A stretch of DNA of 64,000 nucleotides from Balanoglossus misakiensis. Taxonomy: Eukaryota > Animalia > Hemichordata. The first letter of the stretch is position 1, and every line of letters begins with the position of its first letter. Positions 1-59,466 of the stretch are shown in pieces. Both the position numbers and the translations under genes were made by a program. The stretch is from assembly GCA_040954595.2 (NCBI GenBank), contig CM082576.2, forward strand, positions 20,197,028 through 20,261,027, written 5' to 3'. The notes beneath the pieces are model-generated. The model had not been told where the DNA came from and ran no database searches. It worked only from the letters and a program-made list of their open reading frames with translations.

Positions 1-10
1 TGGTAGGACA

Positions 11-4775: not shown

Positions 4776-4784
4776 GGGGCAGTG
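4776..4784 (+). other. Putative polypurine tract of the Gypsy element
   Basis: GGGGCAGTG immediately before the inferred LTR start TGATACC. Confidence 0.5.
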
Positions 4785-6160
4785 TGATACCATTGAATTT
4801 GCACCCCTCAGAGCATAGTGGAATGACCCCGCCTATATCGTATATTTGATACATTTTTGATTACTGACTTTACCTGTTTATTGTGATTACGCAATTGAAG
4901 TAGTCCGCAGGTGTTGACTGTATTTCTTGTGAGGTATTCGATTTCGAGTTATGATGTTTCTGTATGAAAGCTCTTTTATTGTTATTGATCGAATATTTGC
5001 TACTGTAAAGTTGAATTTGTTCCGTCCAGGCAGTACCGCGTGTATTCAGTCAAAGGTTTGGCGGGTGTAATACGGCGATGAACTAGTGAGTAAAAAGGGA
5101 ACTTTTTAATATGGCCGTTGTCCGATTGTATTGACGAGAGTGGAATCTCCACAAAAATCCGAACCATCGGCAGAATCGTACGGCGAAATTGCATCTTGAA
5201 TGGGAATCGAGGAGAGCCGGATGTTAACTAACATTATTTGAGCTAGTCTTCGTGAGATCCCTACGTAAGAAGCATTTCATCGACTATTTCGAACGACAGG
5301 TCTGCTGTACCTGAACGAACCATTGTTATTGTCACGCTGATTACTGAGACACCGATCGCCGAGATCCAACGATTACGGGTACTCGCGCAGGTTTCTCAAC
5401 GTCGATGCTTCACGAACTGAAAGCTGATGTAAGTACGATCTCATTAACGCTAATCATGTAAAATCGGACTGGATTTGATAAACTTACGGCCTTTCTAGGT
5501 TCTTCGAACCACGGCGTGTGGGGAATGCAATGAGCCGCATTGTTTGACCCCCAACGTCTACAAACTTTGAACGAATCATATACGAGCAGGAACACTCGAC
5601 CCTACGATCGATTTGCCGATCACGGAACTGATCAGCGCTTCGTCATCAAGCTCCGCTTTACGCCTGGATACACTCGGAGCGTTTGCGACGAGCGAACTTT
5701 GAGATATTTGCATTGATTGTTAGAGGATTCTCTTCGTTGGATTTTGGAAGCGGATCGACGCGACTGTTGAGTGCGGGACAGCGCCCTCATCGCCAGAACT
5801 CGATTGTGCGTCACGTTCGTTTATAAACTGTTGAACTTTGACCGGACTCGCGGCAGGTTGTGCCACGCCAGTTTTCTTCAGGAAGGTGTTACTTGTTAAT
5901 GAAACAGGTTTTGATAGAGCTCTTGTTACATCTCTGATGTTGATAGACTTACTATTAATTATACTTCTTTCATTGGATATAAAGTGTCTTTGTGTCATTT
6001 TGTCCACACCCCCTTCACTCGCCCTGTGTTCCCAAAGCTACCGCAATCACCACGAATCCTACGACCCAACTCACATGAACGAAACTTGTTGATTACCCTT
6101 GTCGAGTTTGCTCACGCCCAGCTAGCCCATCGTTTTTATTGGAATTTTGCAAGGGTAACA
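4785..6160 (+). repeat. Gypsy 3' LTR (~1376 bp)
   Basis: Starts TGATACC and ends GGTAACA (6/7 inverted match). The right end is fixed by the satellite junction; the left end is inferred because no second LTR is in the window. Confidence 0.7.
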
Positions 6161-12000: not shown

Positions 12001-13486
12001 GATCCAGGCCGTAGGAGATCTGACTTGATCATCGTGGTCAATGTACGCGTGTTTCCGATCTAAAGTGCCGGGGCTTCAGCTAAACCAGGCCGTAGGAAAT
12101 CCGACGTAATCACCGTTGATAACTTACGCCAGTCTGTGTCATATAGAGCCGGTGCACCAGCCGAGTCACGCCGTAGGAAATCTGACTTGATCAACGTGGT
12201 CAATGTACGCCTGTTTCTGCTCTAGAGTGACGAGGCTTTATCCAAGCCCTGCCGTAGAAAATCTGACTTGATCACCGTTGCTAACGTACGCTAGTGTCTG
12301 TCATATTGTGACGGAGATTTAGCCGAGCCAGGCCGTAGAAAAATCGACTTGTTCAACGTTACCAGTGTGCAACTGTTTCTGCTCTAGAGTGTCAGGGTTT
12401 TAGCCGACTTATGCTGTAGGAAATCTGAGTTGATGAACGGGAATTCAATGTTAGAAAACCCGTGTGGAAAGTATCTCTACCCGTTTAAAACTAAGAAAAG
12501 AATTTATTCTTATTTATTTTGTAAAAAAAGACAATTTTTCGAGAAAAAAAAGTCGAAAATGGTAATTTTGTCTTGGGTGATACAAATTATACCGCCTTTT
12601 CTGGAATTTGCAGCACTTTTTACAAGAGAACGACACTTCATGCTCCATAATATTTCCGAAAATGTAGAAAAGAGTTAATTTTTTATGATTTTTTAAAAAT
12701 TTACCATTTTTGACAAAATATGGCCAAAATGGCTATTTTTTCTTGAATTTCGTCACTATCTCTACATTTTTGGAGTGGTCGAAAGTTTTAACATACAATC
12801 AACATGTCATATATGATCAGGGCACCAAATTCGAAGAACAAAGGTTTTTTTATTTTTTTTTTCTAAAAATGACATTTTCAAGCAAAATTTGATAACATGC
12901 AATTTTGTCTGCAGTGAGACTGTCTTTTGTGGAATTTGTATCGATATTTGCATACGAAGAGCATTCTATACTCCATCAGATTTCCGAAAATGTAGAAAAA
13001 GGTATTTTTTGTAATTTTCAAAAATTTACCATTTTGACCAAATTGTGGCTAAAATTGTTATTTTCGTGTTGAATGCCGCCAGTGTCACTGCTTTTAAAAG
13101 TCATAAACACTTTTAACATACAAGCAATTGTTTATATATGATCAGGTCACCGAATTAATAAAATAAAGAATGTTTTGCCTAAAAATGACCTTTTTGGTGC
13201 AAAAACGAATAAAACGAAATTTTGTATTAAATCAGAGTGCATTTTTTATAATCAGCACCATTTTTACATATAATGGAAATTTCATACATCATCAGATATC
13301 CAAATATGAAAAAATGATTTAGATGATTGTCCAAAATTAGCTGATATCTAATAAATGTAGTATTGAACCGTTCTGTTTCCCCCCCCCCCCCTCATACATT
13401 ATATGCGGTACGCCGATGTCAGCTTACCCGGCAGTACTGCAGGCCGTGCCCCCAACTAACGTCGGTGTTTGAAACGCCCTGGTTAA

Positions 13487-14283
13487 GATGGGTCCCTGGG
13501 ATCTTTTTGCCCGTTGCTATGGGCCTTTATAGGACACTACACTCAATTTTGATCGAAACCGTTATGAACGTCCGACAAGGGGCTTGTATCTAGTTAAAAA
13601 TACACACGATTGTGTGCACACCCCCTGTCCAAGTATGTTTACGGCAGCTACCGCCCGGCCATAGGCCGCCACGCTAATACGGCAAAGCAGCGGTCAGCGA
13701 TAGCGTGCGCGTCCTGTAACCACAGTAACTGGATCGAACGTTTAAAATCCAATGTTTTGTACACAGAGATTTTGTACCGTTCACGAAAATCCCTAAGGCT
13801 TTTTTCATAGGCCACGTACGCCATTCAAATTTGACCTGCTTGTTGAGAACGCACTTCCGCACAGTGTGACGGATCGTTTTTTTTTGGTTTTCGTCGTGCT
13901 AAGAAGCGATACCGGTGGAAGAGTGCGTCCAAAAACACCCAAAATCGATGACTTTTTCAGGTGTGGTACGGGTATGCTGAAATCGTAGGATACAACGATA
14001 ATATTCGAAAACAAAATCCGTCACGATCTTCCCTGGTTCAAGCAACTAATGAATACGTCTCAAGTTCGTTTTTGAGGTCACGGAATAAAAAGCCTTAGGC
14101 TTTTGAAATTTGACCTAGCTAATTTGCATATCAATGGCGTCAGGGGGCGCGCGCTCACAATCGTGCAGATTTTCAACTAGTTACCAGCCCCTTGTTAGAC
14201 TCTGAAAACGGCTTAGTCCAAATCGGGGTGTAATGTCCTGCAAAGGCCCATAGCAACGAGCAAAAAGATCCCAGGGACCCATC
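13487..14283. mobile_element. Non-autonomous TIR DNA transposon (MITE), 797 bp, TTAA target duplication; Kolobok-like termini
   Basis: TTAA at 13483-13486 and 14284-14287; the empty site ccctggTTAAattcggg is seen in other units. TIR GATGGGTCCCTGGGATCTTTTTGC(C/T)CGTTGCTATGGGCCTTT is 42 bp with 1 mismatch and continues degenerately to ~140 bp. GA...TC ends fit Kolobok (RR..YY) better than piggyBac (CC..GG). Confidence 0.9.
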
Positions 14284-15913
14284 TTAAATTCGGGCTTTCT
14301 CTATAAATTGACAGGCAATAATGCAGTCCTACCCGAACAAATGTCGAGTGTTGACCCGCTGTGACTTTCCCTCTTCGGTTTGCCCGACTTAGCCAACGTC
14401 TTTGTACTAGGGTGTCGGGTCTTTTGCAGAGCCAGGCCGAAGGAAATCCGACTTGATCACCGTTGCTAACGAACGCTAGTGTCTGTCATGGTGTGCCGGG
14501 GTTTTAGTCGAGCCAGGCCGTAGGAGATCTGACTTGATCATCGTGGTCAATGTACGCGTGTTTCCGCTCTAAAGTGCCGGGGCTTCAGCTAAACCAGGCC
14601 GTAGGAAATCTGACTTGATCAACGTTGCTAACGAACGCTAGTGTCTGTCATAGTGTGCCGGGATTTTAGTCGAGCCAAGCCGTAGGAGATCAGACTTGAT
14701 CAACGTGGTCTCTGTACGCGTGTTTCTGCTCTAGACTGCCAGGGCTTTAGCCAAGCCATGCCGTAGAAAATCTGACTTGATCACCGTTGCTAACGTACGC
14801 TAGTGTCTGTCATATTGTGACGGAGATTTAGCCGAGCCAGGCCGTAGAAAAATCGACTTGTTCAACGTTACCAGTGTGCAACTGTTTCTGCTCTAGAGTG
14901 TCAGGGTTTTAGCCCACTTATGCTGTAGGAAATCTGAGTTGATGAACGCGAATTCAATGTTAGAAAACCCGTGTGGAAAGTATCTCTACCCGTTTGAAAC
15001 TAAGAAAAGAATTTATTCTTATTTATTTTGTAAAAAAGACAATTTTTCGAAAAAAAGTCGAAAATGGTAATTTTGTCTTGGGTGATTCAAATTATACCGC
15101 CTTTTCTGGAATTTGCAGCACTTTTTACAAGAGAACGACACTTCATGCTCCATAATATTTCCGAAAATGAAGAAAAGAGTTTATTTTTTATGATTTTTTA
15201 CAAATGTACCATTTTGTCAAAATATGGCCAAAATGGCTATTTTTTCTTGAATTCCGTCAATATCTCTGCATTTTTGGACTGGTCGAAAGTTTTAACATAC
15301 AATCAACATGTCATATATGATCAGGACACCAAATTCGAAGAACAAAGGTTTTTTTATTTTTTTTTCTAAAAATGACATTTTCAAGGAAAATTTGGTAAAA
15401 CGCAATTTTGTCTGCAGTGAGCCAAATTAGACGGTCTTTTGTGGAATTTGTATCGATATATACATACGAAGAGCATTCTATACTCCATCAGATTTCCGAA
15501 AATGTAGAAAACAGGTATTTTTTGTAATTTTCAAAAATTTACCATTTTGACCAAAGTGTGGCTAAAATTGTTATTTTCGTGTTGAATGCCGCCAGTGTCA
15601 CTGCTTTTAAAAGTCATAAAAACTTTTAACATACAAGCAATTGTTTATATATGATCAGGTCACCGAATTAAAAAAATAAAGAATGTTTTGCCTAAAAATG
15701 ACCTTTTTGGTGCAAAAACGAATAAAACGCAATTTTGTATTAAATCAGAGTGCATTTTTTATAATCAGCACCATTTTTACATATAATGGAAATTTCATAC
15801 ATCATCAGATATCCAAATATGAAAAAATGATTTAGATTTTAGATGATTGTCGAAAATTAGCTGATATATAATACATGTAGTATTGAACCACTCTGTTTCC
15901 CCCCCCCCCTACA

Positions 15914-18900
15914 CACATGCGATTCCCCGTGTTAGACTAATGGGATTTGGTTTGAGGAAAGAAATAACAAACAACAAACAGAACGAGAATTACAATAGAG
16001 CGAGAATTTGTGGTAATTTACGAGACTTCGTTCGGCATGCCTCAGAATCGGTACAATTTCCTTGGATTGGTGAAGAATCGCTTGAACTTGCGGGAAAAAT
16101 GAACGTATCCACAGGATTCACTAACCATCTATCCTTCCCAGGAGGCAGTGGCATGAAAAACTGTGCGACCGTTTGTGAGTAGCGAGCGATTAATGGTCGC
16201 AATGCGTGGCCGCGCAGTTCTAATATGGCGGCGATCATATTTTGGTGAGATTCGAACTGTAATGTATTTTTCGATGCAGATTTTGAAATAATAATCGCAT
16301 TGCAACTGCAACAGACAAGTTTTTTCATGATTGTTGTCTATTTATTAATCGTTTTATGTGAGTTTTGTGTCGTCGGATTTTGTATTATTCTGGCGTATTT
16401 TCTCGAAGTACGCGGAAGTGAGAAGCCCTACTCTATGTGTGGTATGCGTGTGACGAATACATGTGTTGTGTTCTATTATGTCCCTGTCGCTATGGACACG
16501 GCGTCTACCGGTGTAAACAGAAAAAAGTGCGCCACTTTTGAAGTTTGACGTCTGTGCGGTCGGCTCGCGTCACCATGTACAGAAATATAGAGTTTCATCG
16601 AAATTTAGTTTCAAAACGATGCCGAATTTGTGCAGAGAAGCTATCGAACAACACCAGGTATGAGAAAACACCAGAAATTGTCGAGGGCTTTGGTGTCAAC
16701 CTCGATGATGATTGTGAAACCATTCACCCTAATTTCATATGTAAGGATTGTAAGCGAGTGTCTGAACAACACAAGAAGGCAAAGATTGTTGGTAGATCAT
16801 ATGCCACCAAGATAAAAGTATTTGACTGGACAAAACACACCAGGATTCTGGATAGGAGGGTGTACTGTGTGTTCTGTGTTGTGTAAGGGTGGCAGGAAAA
16901 GGCAATTGAAAGGACGGTCAAAATATGTAAACGTGCCAAAGGGCTTACAGGATGGAGAAACCAGCAAGACCGTTGAATTAGAAGACGAAAGGAAGCGACA
17001 AGACACATAGGCGTTGTGTAACAGTGCACGCTTAAGAGCAAGCAAACGGTTTCGCCATGAACTGGAACTGAGCCATGAGAGGTTCAAGAGCCCTGTATCA
17101 AAAGACTTTGAATGTCCGATTTGTAAAAGTGTCACAGATAGCTGTTTACAGGTTTTATGTGAGGGGCCCCATACTTTCTGTTGTGAATGTCTATGTGAGT
17201 GGCGTGTACAGTCTCCGTCTCATACATGTCCAGTTTGTCGTGTTCCTATATCTGTGTCATCAATTGTTAGTGTTCCAATTGTAGTTACAAATGTCTTGTC
17301 ATCCCTTGTTGTATCTTGTGACAATGTCATGTATGGGTGCACCTCTCATATGCCCCTGGAAGAGTTATCTGTACATATGCAGCAATGCAAATTTTCATTG
17401 CCATTATATCGCGACCACGACTATTGTAAAATAGTCAAAGATCATGAAGCAACAGAGCAAACTTCGCCACTACAGTCAACTACCACAGCTACTTCTACAA
17501 TTCTGGATAGAATGCATCAGTTCAGAGAATACAGAGAGTTTGAAGTCCTGGCTACCAGAATTCTGAAAGAAAAGATGAGCATGGCAGAGGACAACACCGT
17601 TAGATTTAAGACAGGGGGACAAGTGAGTATGAGATCCGTTTAAAAAGCTGTTTCAAGATTTACCTTTGAAATCATGTCACTGTGTGTATGTCAAAATTAT
17701 ATTGCTAGTCAAACCCAATCATTGATACATAAAGGATAGCAAAACTATATCATGTTTAAAAACACTGTAAAGAAGGAAATTCTATCATTTACTTTGCAGC
17801 CTTTAATCATGGCAAAAATAACCAAACCGCGTATAACAAGCCAGGACTGTAGTAAATATACATTAATAGAGAGGTCGAAGAGTTTGAAAGAAGTAAGAGA
17901 GACAGTCAGTGGTGGAGGCGATTCCTCCACTATACAAGCTGGTGCTGACTTCAAAAGTATGGGCAAAGAAAATAAGGAATCAATTCTGGAATCACTCGGC
18001 ATAGCAGCTAACGCACCACCTGGTGCTGGGTTACTTTTGAAAACCGACCTTGATATCACTTGGTCAACATTGAGGAAATTACGAAGGTAGGCGAAATTGG
18101 TACTGTGAAGGTACATGTTATTGCATGAAGTCCATACTCATAATGCATAATGTACAATAGTTTAGTCAGCAAAACACATGTTTCATGAAAATCAATAGAC
18201 CTTAAAATATTTCACAAGTGCCCATTTTTGAACGACTCATTGAAAGCATTTTACCTACAATATAAAGTTGCTTTCAGAAAATGTGTCTCATAAATTTGTT
18301 GATTTCTTTTTATTTGACTAGTACATCAAAGCTTGTTTCACACAAGGGTATCCCTGCAAATGAGATCTGGATTAAAGTTGGTGGTGATCACGGAGGTGGC
18401 TCAATGAAATAAACCTTCCAGATCCTCAACGTTGAACAACCTAACAGTGTTGAAAACACAGTTGTTTGGAATTTGTTCCTAGCTGGTGACAGCTACAGAA
18501 ACCTCCGCAGAGCAATGACTGTGAATTCAGGCCAAATAGATCTGCTCGATGAACACAAATGGAAGTAAGTACCTTTCTGTTTTTATTTACATCTTGTTTC
18601 ACTTGCTAAGGGTAATGACTGTATTTTGTCATGAATGAATATTATCTTTGTATTTAATTCTTTTTATGTGCACTGTTTAGGGAATGGTTACTCCGCGTAC
18701 ACATTACTGGTGACTATGAGTACCTTTGTAAGAGCTACGGGTTGTCTGGAGCAAGTGGCAGGTGCTCAATTTACGTCTTGTCAAATAATGCATTTTGCAG
18801 TTGGATACTCTAACTTTCAAAATTTCATCTTTCGAAAAACAACAAATCAATTGTGTTTGACAGGAAAGTACTTCTGTCTGTGGTGCCTGATTACCAAGGA

Positions 18901-21172
18901 AACATCACTTTTGGACCCTGAGCGCAGACCACCCATTCCAGCGAGGACGCTCACCCGGATTCATCAAGACTATGCCCGGTTTACAGAGAAAGGATCAAAC
19001 CTGAAAGATGCGAAAGAATTTAACAACTGTATACGTAAACCATTGTTCAATATCCCACTTAAAAGGGTTAGTGAAATTGACATTCATCAACAATATTAAT
19101 ATTTCTTTTTTCTCAACCAGATCTTTTAGATTATTATATTAGTATTTAAAGCTTCATTTAGCAACTTTTGTCAGTATTTTTATTTTGTTAAAAAGTGTGT
19201 ACCTTGAGTCCCCCACCCCCATATGAAACGTTTATTATTAATTTGCTCAGTTAACCTCATATATGTGAGTGCGAGCATGGTTGTTTATGCTAAAAAGTGA
19301 TTTCATGTCAAGAAGATACTGACAAAAGTAGCCTAAAGTTACAGATATTGTCCCTCTAATGATCTTCTTCATATACACTTAGGTTGCTCTGCCAGTGTTA
19401 CACATTTCTCTTGGAATTTTTCACCGATGGTTTAAGATGCTGCAAGAGGCATGCAGATTGCATGATGTTGAAATCTTCCTGCGTTTAGCAAGAGAGGATG
19501 ATATTGATGAGCCCGTTCTGCCCTGTGAGTTGTTTGACGAGTATGTCAACATCATCAACAAAATCATGAAAGAAGAATCCTTACTGGCTGAGCTACAGGA
19601 TAGGGCAGAAAGTGTTAGAGGTGCCATTGACAAAGCAATGTTACTGGAAGAAAGTGGGGACGACGATGATGATGATGATGACGACAATGACGACAGTCAA
19701 CCCTCACTTGTCCAGGCCATGCAAATGGAAAAGGAGTGTTCACAATTACATGATCAGGCAAAGGAAAAGGTTAATATCTTAATGTTGTTCGACTTTCAAT
19801 TGTTTTTCATCTAATTTTACTTTTATTCACTTTACAGGAAAAGTAACAAATGGATTATCATACTTTCTTAGCTTCAGATAATTGAAGACTTGAAAGGAAA
19901 ACTCCCGCAACATGCAGGTTATACTCAGAGGGCTCTTGATAGAGCCCTTGCAAAAATTAATGTACACTTGCAGGATTACCATAGCCAGGCCTTTGTTGGC
20001 AATCATGTCAACAAATGTTGCAAGGTTTGTCATACCATGTAGGATAAATATTGTTCTGAGTTTGCATGACCACTGACACTTTGTCAATTTGTTTCAAGTT
20101 CTCTTTCAGAATGTGTTTTCTTTTTTTAAATACAAACATTTTCCTTTTCAGTTTTTGTGCATGTCCACCAATCATAAGCATGCATTAATGTGAATCAACA
20201 TTAGTTGTAATCAGGTTTTACTTTTGTGAAATGTACTATGCAGATAGTAAACATGTAGTTAGTTCATAATTTTCATTTTACATTTATTTACATAAATAAT
20301 TGATTTTATATCTTTGTGAAAGAAAATGTTAAAAGACTGCATAAATGTTCATAGTTTTCAATTGTTACAAATTTTAGGTTTAATTTTTTCTATGTTCTGA
20401 ACATGCCTTCGTGTACATGTCAGTGGAGTAACCATCTATTTTACTTTTCAGCCAAAGCATGTTACTATCCTTTGTGACAGTGTAGTAACTACAACTGAGA
20501 AATGTTGTCCTGATCTTTTCAGCAACGCTCGGCAAATTATGTCAAAGCATCAACAACTGTTTACACACTTTGCTACCTGCCATAACATATATTCTGTGAA
20601 TAGAGAACTCTGCGCAGAGGAAATTGATACATTGGGTGTGTTGAGTATACAATGTCTCATGAAAGATTTTATTTACCTTTTCATGTAATAGAGTTTCTAG
20701 TTGTACAGTATTTATTTCTCAGGTGCTGTTTGCATGCCAACATGAAGAAGATTGTATTTTGGAGATTTGATTTCCCTACTAATATTTTCTCTGTTTCTGC
20801 ATTTGTTTAGTTTAATGATTTCCATCTCAAAGTTTGGATAACATACTGTTGTATTCTACAATTTGGGATATCAATCCATGCACAGGATATAAGCTTGTTA
20901 TTTATTCAGATAAGTATTCCTGCATGCTTTTATTTCAGTATTTTTATTGTACTGTATTTTTCAGTAGTTTTTTTAATGTCACAAATAACTTCAAATATAT
21001 TACAGCTTCATTGTTTGTAAACACTTCATGTTATTGTTCTACAAATCAACTACAGTTCCTTGTGCACTTCCTACTAGCATCATTAAATATATAATACAAG
21101 TAAGCATCCCAATGCAATCTTATAGCAGTGCATGATTTTTGTTCTATATATATATAGCATATATATAGATTC
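15914..21172 (+). mobile_element. Chapaev-type / RAG1-related DNA transposon, 3'-truncated
   Basis: Satellite stops at ...ccctaca, then non-satellite sequence starts with CAC (CACATGCGATTCCCC; 15912 is an alternative start). It encodes a spliced RAG1-related transposase. Satellite resumes at 21173 without a right TIR or TSD. Confidence 0.82.
16575..20635 (+). pseudogene. Multi-exon RAG1-like (Chapaev-type) transposase pseudogene: RAG1-N zinc domain, RING, zinc finger, partial DDE core
   Basis: Inferred exons: 16575-17622, 17800-18086, 18322-18564, 18681-18757, 18864-19066, 19383-19769, ~19872-20024, 20452-20635, with phase-compatible splice sites. Motifs: HRNLVSKRCRIC...IHPNFICKDC...WTKH...CTVC; CPIC...C..PHTFCCEC...CPVC; KTGGQ|PL; IWIKVGGDHGGG; GDYEYLCKSYGLSGASG|KYFCLWC; PVLHISLG; AFVGNH. 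Lesions: frameshift near 16845, TAG at 17008-17010, TAA at 18410-18412, C-terminus missing. Confidence 0.85.
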
Positions 21173-24100
21173 AACTTACGCCAGTCTGTCTCATATAGAG
21201 CCGGTGCACCAGCCGAGTCACGCCGTAGGAAATCTGACTTGACCAACGTGGTCAATGTACGCCTGTTTCTGCTCTAGAGTGCCGGGGCTTAGGAAACCGT
21301 AGGAAACCCGACGTGATTACCGTTGTTAACTTACGCCAGTCTGTGTCCTATATATAGTGCCGGGGCATCAGCCGTGCCAGGCCGAAGGAAATGTGAGTAG
21401 ATCAACGTGGTCTCTGTAGGCGTGTTTCCGCTCTAAAGTGCCGGGGCTTCAGCTAAACCAGGCCGTAGGAAATCTGACTTGATCACCGTTGCTAACGTAC
21501 GCTAGTGTCTGTCATATTGTGACGGAGATATAGCCGAGCCAGGCCGTAGAAAAATCGACTTGTTCAACGTTACCAGTGTGCAACTGTTTCTGCTCTAGAG
21601 TGTCAGGGTTTTAGCCGACTTATGCTGTAGGAAATCTGAGTTGATGAACGGGAATTCAATGTTAGAAAACCCGTGTGGAAAGTATCTCTACCCGTTTGAA
21701 ACTAAGAAAAGAATTTATTCTTATTTATTTTGTAAAAAAGACAATTTTTCGAAAAAAAATCGATAATGGTAATTTTGTCTTGGGTGATTCAAATTATACC
21801 GCCTTTTCTGGAATTTGCAGCACTTTTTACAGGAGAAGGACACTTCATGCTCCATAATATTTCCGAAAATGAAGAAAAGAGTTAATTTTTTATGATTTTT
21901 TAAAAAATTACCATTTTTGTCAAAATATGGCCAAATGGCTATTTTTCTTGAATTCCGTCAATATCTCTGCATTTTTGGAGTGGTCGAGAGTTTTAACATA
22001 CAATCAACATGTCATATATGATCAGGGCACCAAATTCGAAGAACAAAGGTTTTTTTTATTTTTTTTTCTAAAAATGACATTTTCAAGGAAAATTTGCTAA
22101 AACGCAATTTTGTCTGCAGTGAGCCAAATTGGCCGTTTTTTTGTGGAATTTGTATCGATATATACATACGAAGAGCATTCTATACTCCATCAGATTTCCG
22201 AAAATGTAGAAAACAGGTATTTTTTGTAATTTTCAAAAATTTACCATTTTGACCAAATTATGGCTAAAATTGTTATTTTCGTGTTGAATGCCGCCAGTGT
22301 CACTGCTTTTAAAAGTCATAAAAACTTTTAACATACAAGCAATTGTTTATATATGATCAGGTCACCGAATTAATAAAATAAAGAATGTTTTGCCTAAAAA
22401 TGACCTTTTGGGTGCAAAAACGAATAAAACGCAATTTTGTATTAAATCAGCTCATTCAGAGTGCATTTTTTATAATCAGCACCATGTTTACATATAATGG
22501 AAATTTCATACATCATCAGATATCCAAATATGAAAAAATGATTTAGATTTTAGATGATTGTCCAAAATTAGCTGATATCTAATAAATGTAGTATTGAACC
22601 GTTCTGTTCCCCCCCCCCCCCCCTACATTATATGCGGTACGCCGATGTGAGCTTACCCGGCAGTACTGCAGGCCGTGCCCCCAACTAACGTCGGTGTTTG
22701 AAGCGCCCTGGTTAAATTCGGGCTTTCTCTATAAATTGACAGACAATAATGCAGTCCTACCCGAACAAATGTCGAGTGTTGACCCGCTGTGACTTTCCCT
22801 CTTCGGTTTGCCCGACTTGCCAACGTCTTTGTACTAGAGTGTCGGGTCTTTTGCAGAGCCAGGCCGAAGGAAATCCGACTTGATCACCGTTGCTAACGAA
22901 CGCTAGTGTCTGTCATGGTGTGCCGGGGTTTTAGTCGAGCCAGACCGTAGGAGATCTGACTTGATCATCGTGGTCAATGTACGCGTGTTTCCGCTCTAAA
23001 GTGCCGGGGCTTCAGCTAAACCAGGCCGTAGGAAATCCGACGTAATCACCGTTGATAACTTACGCCAGTCTGTGTCATATAGAGCCGGTGCACCAGCCGA
23101 GTCACGCCGTAGGAAATCTGACTTGATCAACGTGGTCAATGTACGCCTGTTTCTGCTCTAGAGTGCAGGGGCTTCAGCTGAGCCAGGCCGTAGGAAACCC
23201 GACGTGATTACCGTTGTTAACTTACGCCAGTCTGTGTCCTATATATAGCGCCGGGGCATCAGCCGTGCCAGGCCGAAGGAAATGTGAGTAGATCAACGTG
23301 GTTTCTGTACGCGTGTTTCTGCTCTAGAGTGCCAGGGCTTTAGCGAAGCCATGCCGTAGGAAATCTGAATTAATCAACGTTGCTAACGAACGCTAGTGTC
23401 TGTCATAGTGTGCCGGGGTTTCAGTCGAGCCAAGCCGTAGGAGATCGGACTTGATCAACGTGGTCTCTGTACGCGTGTTTCTGCTCTAGAGTGCCGGGGC
23501 TTTATTCAAGCCATGCCGTAGAAAATCTGACTTGATCACCGTTGCTAACGTACGCTAGTGTCTGTCATATTGTGACGGACATTTAGCGGAGCCAGGCCGT
23601 AGAAACATCGACTTGTTCAACGTTACAAGTATGCAACTGTTTCTGCTCTAGAGTGTCAGGGTTTTAGCCGACTTATGCTGTAGGAAATCTGAGTTGATGA
23701 ACGGGAATTCAATGTTAGAAAACCCGTGTGGAAAGTATCTCTACCCATTTGAAACTAAGAAAAGAATTTATTCTTATTTATTTTGTAAAAAAGACAATTT
23801 TCGAAAAAAAGAGTCGAAAAAGGTAATTTTGTCTTGGGTGATTTAAATTATACCGCCTTTTCTGGAATTTGCAGCACTTTTTACAAGAGAACGACACTTC
23901 ATGCTCCATAATATTTCCGAAAAAATAAGAAAAGAGTTAATTTTTTATGATTTTTTTAAAATTTACCATTTTTGTCAAAATATGGCCAAAATGGCTATTT
24001 TTTCTTGAATTCCGTCAATATCTCTGCATTTTTGGAGTGGTCGAAAGTCTTAACATACAATCAACATGTCATATATGATCAGGGCACCAAATTCGAAGAA

Positions 24101-27100
24101 CAAAGGTTTTTTTTATTTTTTTTTCTAAAAATGACATTTTCAAGGAAAATTTGCTAAAACGCAATTTTGTCTGCAGTGAGCCAAATTGGCCGTTTTTTTG
24201 TGGAATTTGTATCGATATATACATACGAAGAGCATTCTATACTCCATCAGATTTCCGAAAATGTAGAAAACAGGTATTTTTTGTAATTTTCAAAAATTTA
24301 CCATTTTGACCAAATTATGGCTAAAATTGTTATTTTCGTGTTGAATGCCGCCAGTGTCACTGCTTTTAAAAGTCATAAAAACTTTTAACATACAAGCAAT
24401 TGTTTATATATGATCAGGTCACCGAATTAATAAAATAAAGAATGTTTTGCCTAAAAATGACCTTTTGGGTGCAAAAACGAATAAAACGCAATTTTGTATT
24501 AAATCAGCTCATTCAGAGTGCATTTTTTATAATCAGCACCATGTTTACATATAATGGAAATTTCATACATCATCAGATATCCAAATATGAAAAAATGATT
24601 TAGATTTTAGATGATTGTCCAAAATTAGCTGATATCTAATAAATGTAGTATTGAACCGTTCTGTTCCCCCCCCCCCCCTACATTATATGCGGTACGCCGA
24701 TGTGAGCTTACCCGGCAGTACTGCAGGCCGTGCCCCCAACTAACGTCGGTGTTTGAAGCGCCCTGGTTAAATTCGGGCTTTCTCTATAAATTGACAGACA
24801 ATAATGCAGTCCTACCCGAACAAATGTCGAGTGTTGACCCGCTGTGACTTTCCCTCTTCGGTTTGCCCGACTTGCCAACGTCTTTGTACTAGAGTGTCGG
24901 GTCTTTTGCAGAGCCAGGCCGAAGGAAATCCGACTTGATCACCGTTGCTAACGAACGCTAGTGTCTGTCATGGTGTGCCGGGGTTTTAGTCGAGCCAGAC
25001 CGTAGGAGATCTGACTTGATCATCGTGGTCAATGTACGCGTGTTTCCGCTCTAAAGTGCCGGGGCTTCAGCTAAACCAGGCCGTAGGAAATCCGACGTAA
25101 TCACCGTTGATAACTTACGCCAGTCTGTGTCATATAGAGCCGGTGCACCAGCCGAGTCACGCCGTAGGAAATCTGACTTGATCAACGTGGTCAATGTACG
25201 CCTGTTTCTGCTCTAGAGTGCAGGGGCTTCAGCTGAGCCAGGCCGTAGGAAACCCGACGTGATTACCGTTGTTAACTTACGCCAGTCTGTGTCCTATATA
25301 TAGCGCCGGGGCATCAGCCGTGCCAGGCCGAAGGAAATGTGAGTAGATCAACGTGGTTTCTGTACGCGTGTTTCTGCTCTAGAGTGCCAGGGCTTTAGCG
25401 AAGCCATGCCGTAGGAAATCTGAATTAATCAACGTTGCTAACGAACGCTAGTGTCTGTCATAGTGTGCCGGGGTTTCAGTCGAGCCAAGCCGTAGGAGAT
25501 CGGACTTGATCAACGTGGTCTCTGTACGCGTGTTTCTGCTCTAGAGTGCCGGGGCTTTATTCAAGCCATGCCGTAGAAAATCTGACTTGATCACCGTTGC
25601 TAACGTACGCTAGTGTCTGTCATATTGTGACGGACATTTAGCGGAGCCAGGCCGAAGAAACATCGACTTGTTCAACTTTACAAGTATGCAACTGTTTCTG
25701 CTCTAGAGTGTCAGGGTTTTAGCCGACTTATGCTGTAGGAAATCTGAGTTGATGAACGGGAATTCAATGTTAGAAAACCCGTGTGGAAAGTATCTCTACC
25801 CATTTGAAACTAAGAAAAGAATTTATTCTTATTTATTTTGTAAAAAAGACAATTTTCGAAAAAAAGAGTCGAAAAAGGTAATTTTGTCTTGGGTGATTTA
25901 AATTATACCGCCTTTTCTGGAATTTGCAGCACTTTTTACAAGAGAACGACACTTCATGCTCCATAATATTTCCGAAAAAATAAGAAAAGAGTTAATTTTT
26001 TATGATTTTTTTAAAATTTACCATTTTTGTCAAAATATGGCCAAAATGGCTATTTTTTCTTGAATTCCGTCAATATCTCTGCATTTTTGGAGTGGTCGAA
26101 AGTCTTAACATACAATCAACATGTCATATATGATCAGGGCACCAAATTCGAAGAACAAAGGTTTTTTTATTTGTTTTTCTAAAAATGACATTTTCAAGTA
26201 AAATTTGGTAAAAAGCAATTTTGTCTGCAGTGAGACAAATTAGACGGTCATTTGTGGAATTTGTATCGATATATACATACGACGAGCATTCTATACTCCA
26301 TCAGATTTCCGAAAATGTAGAAAACAGGTATTTTTGTAATTTTCAAAAATTTACCATTTTGACCAAATTGTGGCTAAAATTGTTATTTTCGTGTTGAATG
26401 CCGCCAGTGTCACTGCTTTTAAAAGTCTTAAAAACTTTTAACATACAAGCAATTGTTTATATATGATCAGGTCACCGAATTAAAAAAATAAAGAATGTTT
26501 TGCCTAAAAATGACCTTTTTGGTGCAAAAACGAATAAAACGCAATTTTGTATTAAATCAGCTCATTCAGAGTGCATTTTTATAATAAGCACCATTTTTAC
26601 ATATAATGGAAATTTCATACATCATCAGATATCCAAATATGAAAAAATGATTTAGATTTTAGATGATTGTCCAAAATTAGCTGATATCTAATAAATGTAG
26701 TGTTGAACCGTTCTGTTCCCCCCCCCCCCTTACATTATATGCGGTACGCCGATGTCAGCTTACCCGGCAGTACTGCAGGCCGTGCCTCCAACTAACGTCG
26801 GTGTTTGAAACGCCCTGGTTAAATTCGGGCTCTCTCTATAAATTGACAGGCAATAATGCAGTCCTACCGGAACAAATGTCGAGTGTTGACCGCTGTGACT
26901 TTCCCTCTTCGGTTTGCCCGACTTAGCCAACGTCTTTGTACTAGAGTGTCGGGTCTTTTGCAGAGCCAGGCCGAAGGAAATCCGACTTGATCACCGTTGC
27001 TAACGAACGCTAGTGTCTGTCATGGTGTGCCGGGGTTTTAGTCGAGCCAGGCCGTAGGAGATCTGACTTGATCATCGTGGTCAATGTACGCGTGTTTCCG

Positions 27101-28420
27101 CTCTAAAGTGCCGGGGCTTCAGCTAAACCAGGCCGGAGGAAATCCGACGTAATCACCGTTGATAACTTACGCCAGTCTGTGTCATATAGAGCCGGTGTAC
27201 CAGCCGAGTCACGCCGTAGGAAATCTAACTTGATCAACGTGGTCAATGTACGCCTGTTTCTGCTCTAGAGTGCCGGGGCTTCAGCTGAGCCAGGCCGTAG
27301 GAAACCCGACGTGATTACCGTTGTTAACTTACGCCAGTCTGTGTCCTATATATAGTGCCGGGGCATCAGCCGTGCCTGGCCGAAGGAAATGTGAGTAGAT
27401 CAACGTGGTCTCTGTACGCGTGTTTCTGCTCTAGAGTGCCAGGGCTTTAGCCAAGCCATGCCGTAGGAAATCTGAATTAATCAACGTTGCTAACGAACGC
27501 TAGTGTCTGTCATAGTGTGCCTGGGTTTTAGTCGAGCCAAGCCGTAGGAGAGAGACTTGATCAACGTGGTCTCTGTACGCGTGTTTCTGCTCTAGAGTGC
27601 CTGGGCTTTATCCAAGCCATGCCGTAGAAAATCTGACTTGATCACCATTCCTAACGTACGCTAGTGTCTGTCATGTTGTGACGGAGATTTAGCCGAGCCA
27701 GGCCGTATAAAAATCGACTTGTTCAAAGTTACCAGTGTGCAACTGTTTCTGCTCTAGAGTGTCAGGGTTTTAGCCGACTTATGCTGTAGGAAATCTGAGT
27801 TGATGAACGGGAATTCAATGTTAGAAAACCCGAGTGGAAAGTATCTCTACCCGTTTGAAACTAAGAAAAGAATGTATTCTTATTTATTTTGTAAAAAAGA
27901 CAATTTTCGAAAAAAAAAGTCGAAAATGGTAATTTTGTCTTGGGTGATTTAAATTATACCGCCTTTTCTGGAATTTGCAGCACTTTTTACTAGAGAACGA
28001 CACTTCATGCTCCATAATATTTCCGAAAAAATAAGAAAAGAGTCAATGTTTTATGATTTTTTAAAAATTTACCATTTTTGTCAAAATATGGCCAAAATGG
28101 CTATTTTTTCTTGAATTCTGTCAATATCTCTGCATTTTTGGAGTGGTCGAATGTTTTAACATACAATCAACATGTCATATATGATCAGGGCACCAAATTC
28201 GAAGAACAAAGGTTTTTTTATTTTTATTTCTAAAAATGACATTTTCAAGGAAAATTTGGTAAAACACAATTTTGTCTGCAGTGAGCCATATTAGACTGTC
28301 TTTTTTGGAATTTGTATCGATATATACATACGAAGAGCATTTTATACTCCATCAGATTTTCGAAAATGTAGAAAACGGGTATTTTTTGTAATTTTCAAAA
28401 ATTTACCATTTTGACCAAAT

Positions 28421-28756
28421 TGTGGGGAAGTATCGTGGCAGTGATCAATACTCCCGGGAGGGGGTTCGAGTATACTGACGTCGGAAAAGAAGCGAACGAT
28501 TCAGTGCTAGGTAAAACACTGGTTTATTACCATCTGAATCCACAAACAAAGTAACACCACAGAGCTCCTTACAAAATGCTGCCCGAAAGCGCCAAAACTG
28601 GGTTATATATAAGTCCCACGAACGCCGGAGCAAACACTCAACAATTACAATAAATCTGCTACAAGTATAAAGTTTGGCGGTAAACAAAGTCAACTCTGAT
28701 AGGGTAAGAGTTTCCGTCACGTGATCCTTCTGGAGTAAATCTCTCACTTCTCCATA
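28421..28756 (-). repeat. BEL copy 1, 3' LTR
   Basis: Direct repeat of 35971-36306; flanked internally by the PPT (minus strand CGCGGGGGAGAA, 28757-28768). Confidence 0.93.
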
Positions 28757-31734
28757 TTCTCCCCCGCGCAAAGGAAAGTCTCGAAAATCATCAGAAAAAA
28801 AACATTAAATAACATGAAATATGATTAAAGTCACCTAAAGTGTTCAAGGATAATAAACTAATGTTCATTGTGTCAGTAAACATGATAACAGTCACAATGC
28901 GATCGAAATTGTTTTCCAATTTCAAAGTCAAATAGAGAGATCCGCTATTCGTACTCGAGCGGCAACTGCAGAGTCTCTGACAGGTCGTCTCGGGGGTACA
29001 ACATCCGCCTTCACCGAGGAATCTTCAGAGGCTCCAGCTGTGTCGACTGTTTCAGTATTCGTGTTGGAATCTGCTCCAATACCTGTATTATCTCCAGACA
29101 CAGTTGACAGCTCCTTGGAGACAACTTCCAATGGGTACAATTTATGGATAGGTCGGTTTGTAGGACCACCTGCGGTGTTCAACTCCGCAGATCGTACCAG
29201 TTTATCATTACCGAAGATCAACCTTGTTACAGTTCCTAAATGCCATTTCGGACGTTTGTCAGTGTCACTGTGTATTATCACGACATCTCCGACCTTGATG
29301 ACATTATCACGAGTTCCTTTGGTGGGATGTCGTTCACGTAGGGCAGTCAGATACTCGGACGACCATCTTCGCCAAAATTGATCGTGAAATCTTGATAGAT
29401 GTTCATATCTTTTGTTGATTTCACGATTATCACAGTAAGATGGGTCAATCACCTCTTCGTCGGTGATCTCGATGTACGGCAATGAGGTCAGTGTCCTGCC
29501 ATGTAGCAAGTGATTTGGGGTCAATCCAATGTTGTCGTTTATACTGGATGACACGTACGTTAACGGCCTGTCGTTTAAAACGGCTTCAATTTCAGTCACA
29601 ACTGTTGCGAGTTCATCAAAGGTTAGGTAAGCTCGACCGAGAGTTTTCCTAATAGCGTTCTTTGTCAAAGCAATCAGCCTCTCCCAGAAGCCACCAAACC
29701 AGGGCGCGCGCTTCGGTATAAACGTCCATTGTACACGGTGTGCGGCGAGAAAGTCATTTACTTCTGGCGTATCAAACAGTGTTTTGATTTCATTGGCAGC
29801 CGATAAATAAGTCGATGCGTTGTCTGACAGCATCCTACTCGGCAAAGAACGTCTCGCGGCGAATCTTCTGAACGCGTGCATGAACGTCTGGGTTGACATA
29901 TCAGGAACCAGTTCTAGGTGAATGGCACGCGTCACCGCACAGGTGAATAAACAGATATAGGCTTTGGCACGTGTCCCATCTTTGGCCTTGGTATAAAGAT
30001 GACCCGTGAAATCCACGCCTGTTACAGTAAATGCTGGGACAATGTTCACTCGATAACTTGGTAGCGGCGCTTGCACTGGATTCGCGTAAGGTTTCCCGGT
30101 AACTTTGTTGCAAATGACACAACCACGTAAGACACCGCGTACAATAATCTGAATTTTGGGGATCCAATATCTTTGCCTTATCTGTGTCACTGTAGATTGG
30201 ACTCCCTGGTGAAGCGTCAGTTCGTGTCATTTCCGTATTATCAAATTTGTCAATTTATGATGCGAGGGTATCAAGGCGGGAAATCTTGTGACGAAATCGA
30301 TCGGCGCGTTATGGATTCTACTCCCACAGCGAAGTACGTCTTCTTCGTCAACAAATAAGTTCAGTTGTCGAACAATGGGCGCACATTTACTCAAGTTCAA
30401 TTTCACAGACTGGATTTCGGCGTCATAGAACTGCCGTTGAATATGTTTAACCCACATATTTTCCGCTCGGTGCAGCTCATCAGGGGTAATTCTCCCGTGT
30501 TTCACCTCGGTAGATTTTTTCATCCGTGCGATGAATCTGAGGACATAACTTGTCACTCGTAATAGCCTATCCAAGTTGTTGAATCTGGAAATGTCAACAA
30601 CGTGTTGAATTCCGTAGTCATTGGGACTGGTAATTTCCAGATTTTCGCGATCTGTACATCGTCTGGCTTTGGGGGGAGCGAGTATTTCTGCCTTCTCGGT
30701 AGACTGATCGTTGATTCCGTTGCCGAAACGCGGCGGCAATCTGTCCGTCTCATCTGGTTCGATTGCGGTATGCATCACATTAACATCAAACGCTGGGCAA
30801 CTAGGCCAATCGCTTGTCTTTAGCCATGTTGGTCCATTACGCCATAGTTCAGAGCGTTCCATCATTTCGTAGGTTACCCCTCTGGTTAAAGGATCAGCTG
30901 GGTTGTGTTCTGATGGGCAGTATTTCTTTGTGGACTGAAATTCGCGAATTTCATCTACTCGATTCTTCACAAACACCGGAAGTCTCTTCTCACTGTTCAG
31001 CCAGTGAAAGACAATTTGGCTGTCACTCCATAAATAACAACGAACTATGTCATATTTGGAGGACAGGGCTTCTTTAGCGTACTTGCTGAGACGTGTGGCT
31101 ATTAACGCAGCCATCAATTCCAGTCGCGGGAGTGTAGTTTCAGCCACTGGTGCGGTTCTAGTCTTCGCCATCACAAAAGACGTTTGCTGTCCTCTTTTCA
31201 AATACACTACTGCCCCATACGCTCTCTGGCTTGCGTCTGCAAAGGCGTGTAGCTCGCATTCATTGTCGCCTTCAAGTTCATCAAAATATTGTCGTTCGAT
31301 CTTCGTGTTTCGCGAGTCTTTGAGATCTTCTGCGATGTGCATCCATTGAGTGTAGAGATCTGCGTTGATAGGTTCATCCCTGTCTAATTCCAGTTTCCAT
31401 AGTAACTGAATGAACAATTTGGCTTTGATCATTACAGGGGCGAGAAATCCAAACGGATCAAATAGCATCGCCACATAGCTGACAATGTCACGTTTGGTCA
31501 CGAGTTCGGCACGCGACGACATATTAACCACTTTGGAGTAAGTCAATTCGTCAGATTTTGTTGACCACTGCATTCCCAAAACGGATACATCTTCGGTGGG
31601 TTCGTTCAGATTGTCACATGTAGCGAGTTCGTTTATTTGTTGACAGTTGGAAGACCATGCTCTGAGTTTGAATCCGCCTGATGTCATCAACTCATTGGCT
31701 TCATGGTAGTATTTCATGGAGTTTTCTGCAGTAT

Positions 31735-33131
31735 TTATTTATTTTTATTTATTTATTACACAGATCAACGGGCAAACCCACTTACAGATCTGGGAAACAA
31801 TAAAAACAATTAAGTCACAAAACAAAAATTAACTGAAAAACAAGACACCAAAAAAGTAACACATGTCACGTAAAATATAAATACAAATCAAGGAACAGTA
31901 CCATTAAAATGACTGGATAAAATAGATTTAAAACTGTGGAGCGTAGAAAAAATATCAATATTACATTTAGAAGAAATCTCATTAAAAGCAGACATGCATC
32001 TGAGCATTGTCGAGAATTTTCTACAATTAACGGAGCGCAAGTCGGGTTTAAAAAGGGGTTTCTTGCGTAAATTTCTACTAGGGGCGTAAAAACATATTTG
32101 ATTTAAAATACCAGGTGAATCATACTGTGAGTGGATACTTTTGTATAAAAAAACATGTCAAGGGTGAGTCTTCTGTTATATAACATTGGGATATTCAGTA
32201 ATCTACAATAAATAGGGTAGCTGGACCTGCTGCAGTGAATATTGAGTTTGCAACAAATGTACTTCACAAACTTAATTTGTACCCGCTCAATCTTGTCTGA
32301 CAGGCCCTTTTGGTGGGGTGACCACACAACAGAGCCATACTCTAGAATAGATGTTACATAAACAAAATATAGAGAAATAATAGCGGATATGTCATTAAAA
32401 GGCTGGCAGAGGCGCTTAATAAAACCCAGAGATTTGAAGGCTCTGGAAACTGTGTTATTTACAAGTCCTTGATTACAGAAACACGTTGAAGGGGAGTGCC
32501 ATTGATAGAGTAGTCAGTAGATGAAATAACCCTTTTCTTTATGGTGAAACTGATGAGTTTGCATTTATTGATATTAGGTGACAACTTCCAGTTGTCACAC
32601 CAGAGAGCAAATTTATCAAGGTCTTTCTGTAACAAGTCACAATCAGCGGAGGAGGTGATGGTACGGTAAATCTTAGCATCGTCGGCATACATGCTGAGCT
32701 TTGCAGAAATATCTAACAGTGATATATCATTTATATACATTACAAAAAGTAGTGGCCCCAAGAGTGAACCTTGTGGGACCCCCGATGTAGCAGTGAAGCT
32801 GTTTGACGAGTGACTGCCAAACACCACCCTCTGTTGTCTGAGATGGAGATACGACGCTAGCCAGCTGTGCAAATTGCCACATATACCAAATTTGGCGGCT
32901 TTGTACAGCAGTAGTGTGTGACAGACACTGTCAAACGCCTTGCTAAAATCAGTGTAGATTGAATCTACCTGTTCTTTGTTGTTCAATGAAGCTGAAATGA
33001 AATCAGTGTAAGCCACTAAGTTGGTTGTGGTAGATCTATTTTTAACAAATCCATGCTGATCAATGGATATATTTGGTTGAACATGCTGGTAGATATGAGG
33101 GACAATGACAGCTTCGAAAATCTTAGCAAAA
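31735..33131 (-). mobile_element. 5'-truncated CR1/L2-type non-LTR retrotransposon (LINE) nested in the BEL RT region
   Basis: Absent at the homologous site of copy 2 (ctgcagtatcaactcc, ~56666-56681). (TAAA)n-type tail at 31735-31757. RT motifs QHGF, DFSKAFD, SGVPQGSLLGPLLF, YADD, and further downstream VWSPH...IERVQ. Confidence 0.92.
32103..33130 (-). pseudogene. LINE ORF2 reverse transcriptase fragment
   Basis: Reads FAKIFEAVIVPHIYQHVQPNISIDQHGFVKNRSTTTNLVAYTDF...IKDL, then a stop/deletion near 32460, then continues ...LEYGSVVWSPHQ. Confidence 0.88.
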
Positions 33132-35966: not shown

Positions 35967-35970
35967 AAAA

Positions 35971-59462: not shown

Positions 59463-59466
59463 AAAA

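What the first reader, a model, noticed from the sequence alone, without database searches (positions are those of the whole stretch)
15914..21172. Intron-containing RAG1-related transposon with the complete RAG1-type N-terminus and a CAC terminus
Seen: splicing 8 exons by hand gives a protein with H-x7-CRIC...D-x4-HP..CxxC...W..H...CxxC...GRKR, a C3HC4 RING and a following zinc finger. It then has a DDE-type core: GGDHGGG, GDYE...GLSGASG..CLWC, LHISLG, FVGNH. Established: this N-terminal order matches vertebrate RAG1, and the core motifs parallel RAG1 YDEK...GLEASGS..CTLC, LHCDIG and MNGNF. The first two catalytic Asp residues are 69 aa apart, which fits Chapaev transposases better than RAG1 (D600-D708). 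Inference: a probably unannotated Chapaev/N-RAG-type family that bears on how RAG1 acquired its non-core domains. It is hard to see in the ORF track because introns and three lesions fragment it.
Basis: partly seen in the sequence, partly recalled or inferred. Interest (0 to 1): 0.85.

Follow-up and report, generated by a model that had tools for sequence, protein, structure and literature searches.

The report
Dead Chapaev transposon in satellite DNA
This is a broken copy of a known kind of jumping gene (Chapaev) whose front end resembles the antibody-gene recombinase RAG1, a likeness already in print; it has lost part of its cutting domain and its right end, and was likely copied passively along with the repeat array it sits in.

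Summary
Eight exons (six GT-AG introns, one GC-AG) encode a Chapa/NZD zinc domain, RING, zinc finger and a core with D-x69-D, broken by a frameshift and two stops.

A deletion took the right end along with about 430 bp of the flanking 2-kb satellite.

It is a RING-bearing Chapaev, not RAG1L. Its core is 42% identical to a protein matching published Chapaev-1_NV (E 1e-24) but gives E 0.02 to a RAG1L and nothing to RAG1. The Asp-Asp step is 70, against 108 in RAG1. Relatives have CAC..GTG ends, 4-bp duplications (7 of 11 bounded loci) and no room for RAG2. Chapa+RING+core on Chapaevs was published in 2015.

Contig depths hint at about seven near-identical dead copies sharing the same junctions, so likely passive amplification.

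Three of five related families carry CACTTAG 12-13 versus 23 bases inside their two tips. The scan noted such Chapaevs and such ends before on other DNA; this copy cannot test them. Low interest.

The parts
15914..21172 (+). Remnant of a RING-bearing Chapaev DNA transposon, left end to deletion breakpoint
   Evidence: Non-satellite insert in the array; satellite identity resumes at 21173
15910..15913 (+). TACA, end of the satellite flank; candidate left copy of a 4-bp target duplication (right copy lost)
   Evidence: Intact units read CCCTACA|TTATATGCGG; relatives give 4-bp duplications. Inference for this copy
15914..15924 (+). Likely left terminus CACATGCGATT
   Evidence: At the break with the satellite; resembles relatives' tips, rank 112 of 1804 CAC sites; no matching right end within 2 mismatches in the window
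16575..17622 (+). Exon 1: ATG, Chapa/NZD zinc domain (type I ligand order), GGRKR, RING, C2HC finger, TGGQ. Frameshift near 16840-16850 and TAG at 17008-17010
17800..18086 (+). Exon 2: start of the core, ends W..LRKLR
   Evidence: 85%-identical relative with third-position bias
18216..18218 (.). Likely internal deletion point in intron 2, where the exon for ~60-70 residues is missing
   Evidence: Contigs of both runs break here; X1 61-bp bridge depth 188 against 304-317 beside it; X2 has a loose end behind 18216. Gap in the protein shown. Linking the two is inference
18322..18564 (+). Exon 3: GGDHGGG with first catalytic Asp (18386-18388); TAA at 18410-18412
   Evidence: DUF1280 E 0.014 and 0.0027, below cut-off
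18681..18757 (+). Exon 4: GDYE with second catalytic Asp (18712-18714), GLSGAS; followed by a GC donor
18864..19066 (+). Exon 5: CLWC (C2C motif)
   Evidence: 386 relatives at E<=0.001
19383..19769 (+). Exon 6: LHISLG (LH motif) and helical acidic insert
19872..20024 (+). Exon 7: FVGNH (acceptor at 19872 or 19878, same frame)
20452..20635 (+). Exon 8, last one kept; followed by a GT donor with no downstream exon
20636..21172 (+). Intron 8 remnant running into the deletion breakpoint; catalytic-Glu exon(s), right TIR and ~430 bp of satellite are gone
   Evidence: No hit of a 14-sequence C-terminal profile in six frames of the window; junction mapped
14284..15913 (.). Left flank: unit of a ~2.05-kb macrosatellite with 81-bp subrepeats
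21173..22627 (.). Right flank: remainder of the same satellite unit, entered ~430 bp past the insertion site

Best explanation
This is a dead, internally deleted and 3'-truncated copy of a RING-bearing Chapaev DNA transposon sitting in a 2-kb satellite array, where it was likely copied passively after it died. An intact member would splice a single gene into a transposase with a Chapa zinc domain, RING and finger in front of a core predicted to share the RAG1/Transib fold (D-x69-D...E). By analogy with its relatives and with RAG1/Transib it would bind CAC...GTG ends, cut the element out and paste it with a 4-bp duplication, with no RAG2 partner. Shown here: exon structure, motifs, lesions, losses, Chapaev-type core, and relatives' ends and duplications. 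Inferred: insertion after TACA by transposition; loss of one internal exon; a one-sided deletion of the right end; amplification with the array (about 0.65 on its own). This copy cannot make an active enzyme (frameshift in exon 1, no catalytic Glu) and cannot be mobilised normally (no right end).
For: P0253 (Nematostella) matches the Chapaev-1_NV rows of supplement 5 of PMC4411706 by eye. The window's core aligns to it at 42% over 112 aa (E 1.3e-24) and 32% over 100 aa, against E 0.023 for the RAG1L-type P0250 and E>=1.7 for frog RAG1 P0258. The Asp-Asp step is 70 in the window and P0253, and 108 in P0250 and P0258. Core tree of 18 rows: the RAG1/RAG1L pair lies on its own branch (100/100); the window groups with two hemichordate proteins and P0155 (98/98). 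A model of the relative P0053 (pLDDT 87) matches RAG1 at Z 29.6, rmsd 3.6, 462 residues, but only 16% identity (one search agrees). Of 11 related loci with both ends, all have CAC..GTG. Seven (6 distinct insertions) show an exact 4-bp duplication and none a 5-bp one; L013, L014, L027 and L036 show none. All 7 bounded loci scanned carry Chapa and RING; 4 of them were not in the profiles. In 4 of these elements only ~500-600 bp follow the last transposase exon. PMC4079192 (passages read) gives 3-4 bp duplications, CAC..GTG and C(2)C, LH, H(4)H as hallmarks. For amplification: in X1 the element contigs have depth 290-317 with 0-2 differences across all lesions, the left junction has depth 233, and one contig runs on past the right junction, while diverged relatives sit at 40-43; in X2, about 1000-1760 against 106-134.
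Against: The duplication, the right TIR and the third catalytic residue cannot be seen in this copy, so those hallmarks rest on relatives that are only 25-53% identical in protein segments. The left tip is partly ambiguous with the satellite. The constrained-tree test did not reject joining the window to the RAG pair (p-AU 0.335); the long RAG branch has no fixed attachment. The N-terminus scores about equally against Chapaev-1_NV, RAG1L and RAG1 (E 5e-10, 3e-12, 2e-10). Contig depth is not a copy number; both runs come from one sample that may be the source of the window. A single copy at ~300x with a heterozygous deletion, and relatives from another organism, would also fit.
Confidence: 0.92

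Rival explanations
1. It is a RAG1L/ProtoRAG (TransibSU-type) transposon close to the RAG ancestor, with its RAG2L gene removed by the right-end deletion.
For: The N-terminal profiles hit RAG1 first among solved structures (E 1.3e-16 and 3.9e-18). A relative's core folds like RAG1. The tip CACATGC resembles the RSS heptamer (heptamer recalled). The constrained-tree test did not reject window+RAG.
Against: Asp-Asp step 70 against 108; core E 0.023 to RAG1L against 1e-24 to Chapaev-1_NV. No Pfam RAG1 core match for the window's exons or ten long relatives, while P0250 gives E 2.6e-130. Relatives have 4-bp duplications and no room for RAG2L.
Confidence: 0.03
2. It is a domesticated host gene, or a pseudogene of one, with no transposon ends.
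For: Intron-rich structure, and no TIR pair or duplication in the window. Third-position bias against a relative shows past purifying selection.
Against: It interrupts a satellite unit at a sharp point and begins with CAC. It carries three lesions and two losses. Relatives are bounded, multi-copy elements with duplications. Selection on a transposase during activity explains the bias equally well.
Confidence: 0.02
3. It belongs to a distinct sub-lineage of the Chapaev/Transib group that shares the Chapaev core but differs in ends or target duplication, and whose short spacer before the first Asp is native and not a deletion.
For: Exon 2 splices in frame to exon 3. The window's left end lacks the CACTTAG word of three related families. 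Its closest core relatives (P0036, P0004, P0155) were not seen with ends.
Against: The W..LR.LR-to-Asp distance is 30 here and 89-103 in the four relatives where it could be measured, including P0155 from its own clade. Contigs branch inside this intron.
Confidence: 0.04

Closest known systems
RING-bearing Chapaev transposons (Chapaev-1/2_BF, -1/2_NV, -4/6/7_HM; Kapitonov and Koonin 2015, PMC4411706; original Repbase report not seen)
   Same: Chapa + GGR[PK]K-type basic motif + RING + finger + core; Asp-Asp step 70; GGD[HK]G and GDY motifs (Pfam DUF1280 in relatives); CAC start; 42% core identity to the Chapaev-1_NV-matching protein; relatives with 4-bp duplications.
   Different: A new family at sequence level (best named relatives 35-37% over the core, from hemichordates). 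This copy is broken, lacks an internal exon, the Glu exon and the right end, and has one GC donor.
Vertebrate RAG1 and invertebrate RAG1L/ProtoRAG/TransibSU (PDB 21WB, 1RMD, 6OEP, 6B40)
   Same: Same order of N-terminal zinc modules; predicted same core fold (Z up to 29.6 for a relative's model); C2C and LH motifs; CAC tip.
   Different: 12-16% core identity in structural alignment; Asp-Asp step 70 against 108; no counterpart of RAG1 1-88 or the vertebrate H2 insert; finger ends H-x3-C (as in RAG1L P0250) against H-x3-H in frog RAG1; no RAG2L; 4-bp, not 5-bp, duplications in relatives.
Transib (HzTransib, PDB 6PQX)
   Same: Core fold (Z 25.2, rmsd 3.3, 407 residues, for the relative's model); single gene; CAC ends. 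Some Transib families have 12/23-like ends (PMC1131882, passages read).
   Different: Transib lacks Chapa and RING (PMC4411706); canonical 5-bp duplication; 14% identity.
N-RAG-TP of Aplysia (seen only through the review PMC8355894, one passage; original paper not seen)
   Same: A transposon carrying RAG1 N-terminal-like sequence.
   Different: The review describes it as N-terminal-like sequence only, whereas this element has a full Chapaev-type core; no sequence comparison was made.

Membership tests
Chapaev (RING-bearing) | N-terminal Chapa zinc domain | tested here: met
   All ligands align with relatives; profile hits RAG1 NZD at E 1.3e-16; the last CxxC lies past a frameshift
Chapaev (RING-bearing) | RING plus following finger after Chapa | tested here: met
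Chapaev (RING-bearing) | Core similar to a known Chapaev, with the same Asp-Asp spacing | tested here: met
   42% over 112 aa, E 1.3e-24, and step 70, against P0253, which matches Chapaev-1_NV by eye
Chapaev (RING-bearing) | C(2)C and LH motifs between the second Asp and Glu | tested here: met
   CLWC and LHISLG in exons 5 and 6; motifs named in PMC4079192
Chapaev (RING-bearing) | H(4)H motif and catalytic Glu | tested here: inconclusive
   Absent from this copy because the last exon(s) are deleted; present in full-length relatives
Chapaev (RING-bearing) | TIRs with CAC...GTG | tested here: inconclusive
   Left CAC at the satellite break; right end deleted; 11 of 11 two-ended related loci have CAC..GTG, though loci's second search were found by that pattern
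Chapaev (RING-bearing) | 4-bp target-site duplication | tested here: inconclusive
   Not visible in this copy; 7 of 11 two-ended related loci (6 insertions) show exact 4 bp
RAG1L / ProtoRAG / TransibSU | Core >30% identical to RAG1, Pfam RAG1 match, Asp-Asp step 108 | tested here: not met
   Step 70; E 0.023 to P0250, none to P0258; no Pfam RAG1 core match
RAG1L / ProtoRAG / TransibSU | Convergent RAG2-like gene | tested here: inconclusive
   The right part of this copy is deleted; four bounded relatives have only ~500-600 bp after the transposase
RAG1L / ProtoRAG / TransibSU | 5-bp target-site duplication | tested here: inconclusive
   Not visible in this copy; 0 of 11 two-ended relatives show 5 bp
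Transib (canonical) | Core only, without Chapa or RING | tested here: not met
   Chapa and RING present
Chapaev3 | 3-bp TWA duplication, no RING | tested here: not met
   RING present; relatives duplicate 4 bp; Chapaev3 features from PMC3014272 and PMC4079192 passages and supplement 5 of PMC4411706
Active transposon | Intact frame, spliced transcript, transposition | tested here: not met
   Frameshift, two stops, no Glu exon and no right end; transcription itself could not be tested

The most novel reading that the evidence does not exclude
RING-bearing Chapaevs, the group this copy belongs to, have one short and one long end like the 12/23 signals of antibody-gene assembly. In three of five related families the word CACTTAG occurs once at each end, 12 or 13 bases after a 7-base tip on the left and 23 on the right. 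If the transposase needs one end of each kind, the 12/23 design and the full Chapa-RING-core plan both predate the split of Chapaev from Transib/RAG. This copy has lost its right end and its left end lacks the word, so the case rests on relatives, and where the tip and word are cut is my choice.
Probability: 0.3. Interest if true: 0.6.

Novelty: new member of a known kind. Interest (0 to 1): 0.17.

Why it matters
As found, little: one more decayed RING-bearing Chapaev, whose RAG1-like domain order has been in print since 2015. It is useful as an annotation (dead, not a gene, not RAG1L) and as a likely case of a dead element spreading with a satellite array. The relatives' short/long ends are the one lead that touches an open question, the age of the 12/23 design. 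An intact Chapaev could test it; this copy cannot.

Tried and rejected
No whole genome was held, so other copies, the right TIR and the duplication could not be searched directly. No second copy or TIR-like match lies in the window. The run search listed no RNA holder, so splicing was not tested with RNA; this says nothing about expression. A word-indexed search with the RING exon found nothing (0 of 723 candidates), and with exon 5 one protein. A sequence profile of 16 core relatives found no RAG1 or Transib among 21 PDB hits at E<=10, mostly helical or coiled-coil chains; the link came only from the fold search. Viral contigs: 63 pattern matches, none confirmed. Profiles for the missing linker (9 sequences) and the C-terminus (14 sequences) found nothing better than iE 6.7 in six frames of the window. 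The N-terminal tree (23 rows; only the proteins whose RING and Chapa fitted my patterns, plus the window) was unresolved, with long branches. The first core tree finished only as a quick tree and was redone with a simpler model; its one-clade test was inconclusive. The finger's last ligand was considered as a Chapaev-versus-RAG marker and rejected, because RAG1L P0250 also ends in Cys (only 6 of 23 rows fitted the pattern). No CACTTAG-like word in the window's left end (best 3 mismatches). No two-ended element was found in 13 further loci with an 8-base seed plus 4-bp duplication. Rfam gave nothing over 13000-27000. Paper searches on Chapaev end asymmetry: 'chapaev+asymmetric+protorag' gave 0 papers; 'chapaev+heptamer' gave 1, whose passages do not describe it. 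Subscription papers, Repbase Reports and bioRxiv supplements were not visible, so absence from print is not shown. One search returned nothing relevant; one search was seen as a listing only. Published Chapaev sequences were compared by eye only, so trees hold a single named Chapaev and no Transib.
Full report
Setting. Most of the window is a ~2.05-kb macrosatellite built of 81-bp subrepeats and an AT-rich part, interrupted by several mobile elements. The finding is one such interruption. Intact units read C-run-TACA|TTATATGCGG; here the C-run-TACA (ending 15913) is followed by CACATGCGATT. Satellite identity resumes at 21173, about 430 bp further along the unit than the insertion point. No second copy and no inverted match to the left tip within 2 mismatches lies in the window. 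No whole genome was held.

The gene. Eight exons splice in frame with six GT-AG introns and one GC-AG intron, and protein relatives match them in order. Exon 1 reaches Pfam RAG1_imp_bd (E 4.3e-6, above cut-off); RING and DUF1280 matches are below cut-off. Profiles of the window's Chapa and RING segments with 7 and 6 relatives hit RAG1 first among solved structures, at E 1.3e-16 and 3.9e-18. The three lesions are confirmed. An 85%-identical relative in the same sample's contigs aligns over exon 2, with 21 of the 36 listed differences in third codon positions, p=0.002.

The distance from W..LR.LR to the first Asp is 30 residues here, 89, 96 and 103 in three relatives, and 103 in a fourth. So about 60-70 residues are missing. 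Contigs of both runs break at 18216-18218 inside that intron; the bridge with the window's sequence has depth 188 against 304-317 beside it, and X2 shows a loose end there. I infer a deletion carried by some copies only. After exon 8, relatives continue for about 100 residues with PKxHxLExH and GEQGxE. A profile of that part finds nothing in the window. The copy thus has D and D but no E.

What it is. Exon 5 finds 386 relatives. Of ten long ones looked up, four carry a source name: Ptychodera flava, Glandiceps talaboti, Ephydatia and Branchiostoma. A search with the Chapa alignment returned 102 proteins, among them frog RAG1 (P0258), a RAG1L-type protein (P0250) and a Nematostella protein (P0253). 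P0253 matches by eye the Chapaev-1_NV rows of supplement 5 of Kapitonov and Koonin 2015. The window's core aligns to P0253 at 42% over 112 aa (E 1.3e-24), to P0250 at E 0.023 and to P0258 not at all; Asp-Asp steps are 70, 70, 108 and 108. In an 18-row core tree the RAG pair is separated at 100/100 and the window groups with the two hemichordate proteins and P0155 at 98/98; a test forcing the window onto the RAG branch was not rejected (p-AU 0.335), so the tree alone does not fix where RAG attaches. The N-terminal tree was unresolved. A model of the relative P0053, not of the window's own protein (pLDDT 87), matches RAG1, BbRAG1L and HzTransib in Foldseek (E 6e-15, 1.5e-9, 2e-8; 12-14% identity) and in VIA-align (best Z 29.6, rmsd 3.6, 462 residues). 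So the core works like RAG1 in fold but is a Chapaev in sequence.

Ends in relatives. A metagenome scan gave 51 related loci. Ten of them share one 4.9-kb family at 96-99.8% identity. Eleven loci show both ends, all CAC..GTG. Seven have an exact 4-bp duplication (L021 and L032 are one insertion; L033, L039, L040, L015, L026), four have none (L013, L014, L027, L036), and none has 5 bp. All 7 bounded loci scanned carry Chapa and RING, 4 of them outside the profiles. In L033, L014, L015 and L026 only ~500-600 bp follow the last exon, too little for RAG2L. These are the Chapaev hallmarks given in PMC4079192. The window's tip ranks 112 of 1804 CAC sites on a matrix from ten such ends: supportive with its position, not decisive.

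History of this copy. In run X1 the insert is covered by three long contigs with 0-2 differences at depth 290-317. The left junction has depth 233, and one contig extends past the right junction. Diverged relatives have depth 40-43; X2 shows about 1000-1760 against 106-134. If ~40 is single-copy, about seven near-identical copies share the lesions and both junctions, which points to copying with the array after death. Depth is no copy number, both runs are one sample, and a single copy at high depth is not excluded; I put this step at about 0.65.

What is known. Kapitonov and Koonin 2015 (PMC4411706; passages, section 5, supplement 5) state that in two Chapaev subgroups Chapa is followed by a RING as in RAG1, and infer that both were on the common ancestor. 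The 2026 NZD preprint (passages, section 9; supplements closed) links Chapa type I to the RAG1 NZD. PMC1131882 (passages) reported RAG1 N-terminal-like proteins in invertebrates and 12/23-like ends in some Transibs. PMC12730594, PMC3014272, PMC8355894 and 10.64898/2026.08.26.747230 were seen as passages. The scan has reported several such Chapaevs on other genomes; I had stated the Chapaev reading before that look-up. The notes shown for this genome concern other families, and none lies near this place or resembles the left end.

The remaining lead. Two earlier notes mentioned 12/23-like ends, so I checked my loci. Exact CACTTAG occurs once at left position 20 or 21 and once at right position 31 in the L033, L014 and L015 families, and not at the ends of L026 or L036. 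For L033 a shared 10-base word was reached by 1 of 500 shuffles; for L014 and L015 an 8-base word was reached by 27 and 22 of 500. L014 and L015 are 66% identical over 0.9 kb, so they are not fully independent, and these public loci may be the ones the earlier notes used. The window's left end lacks the word and its right end is gone. Two paper searches found no description of this for Chapaev, within the limits of the library.

Verdict. Real, correctly spotted, more broken than reported, and a new member of a known kind. Interest 0.17.

Noticed in passing
L033 family (L021, L027, L032, L033, L039, L040), L013/L014, L015: first and last 40 bases of the elements: Related Chapaev elements have asymmetric two-part ends: CACTTAG at position 20-21 from the left tip and 31 from the right tip, about one helical turn apart; not seen in L026 or L036.
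   Followed up: partly
window 6161-63246: A ~2.05-kb macrosatellite with 81-bp subrepeats (162-bp dimers) and an AT-rich part with an internal ~340-bp duplication; units 85-99% alike; no Rfam match in 13000-27000.
   Followed up: partly
window 13488-14283: A ~0.8-kb non-coding insert in the satellite, flanked by TTAA on both sides, with GATGGG...CCCATC tips and ~143-bp inverted repeats at 80%. It looks like a non-autonomous Kolobok-type element (family label recalled, not tested).
   Followed up: partly
window 28417-36306 and 53385-59815, minus strand: Two ~98% identical BEL/Pao-type LTR retrotransposons with ~340-bp LTRs in the satellite. Both end at the same satellite position (CCATACA|AATTGTGGCT). 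The first holds an extra ~1.4-kb LINE-like reverse-transcriptase piece near 31735-33131; the second has a shortened LTR at 53385. Family labels are from reading the ORFs, not from a search.
   Followed up: partly
window 1-6160: 3' part of a Gypsy-like LTR retrotransposon (RT, RNase H and integrase motifs read by eye), ending at the start of the satellite array.
   Followed up: no
window 63247-64000: Another non-satellite insert begins at the window's end; not identified.
   Followed up: no
runs X1/X2 laid on window 17762-18123: A second family member, ~85% identical over exon 2, lies on a 1464-bp contig at depth 43; shorter diverged matches occur near 17340-17383 and 17507-17573. The host holds more than one subfamily.
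   Followed up: partly
P0255: A 1060-aa protein with a Chapa-like N-terminus joined to a different body (weak DUF6589), not a Chapaev or RAG1 core; the Chapa domain also rides on other elements.
   Followed up: no
P0160: A 913-aa protein made of tandem repeats of a Chapa-like module with no transposase core.
   Followed up: no
L003:541-3966, L007:181-3471: Intronless, open Chapaev-type transposase frames of 1097-1142 aa (L007 with a RING): natural candidates for a biochemical test.
   Followed up: partly
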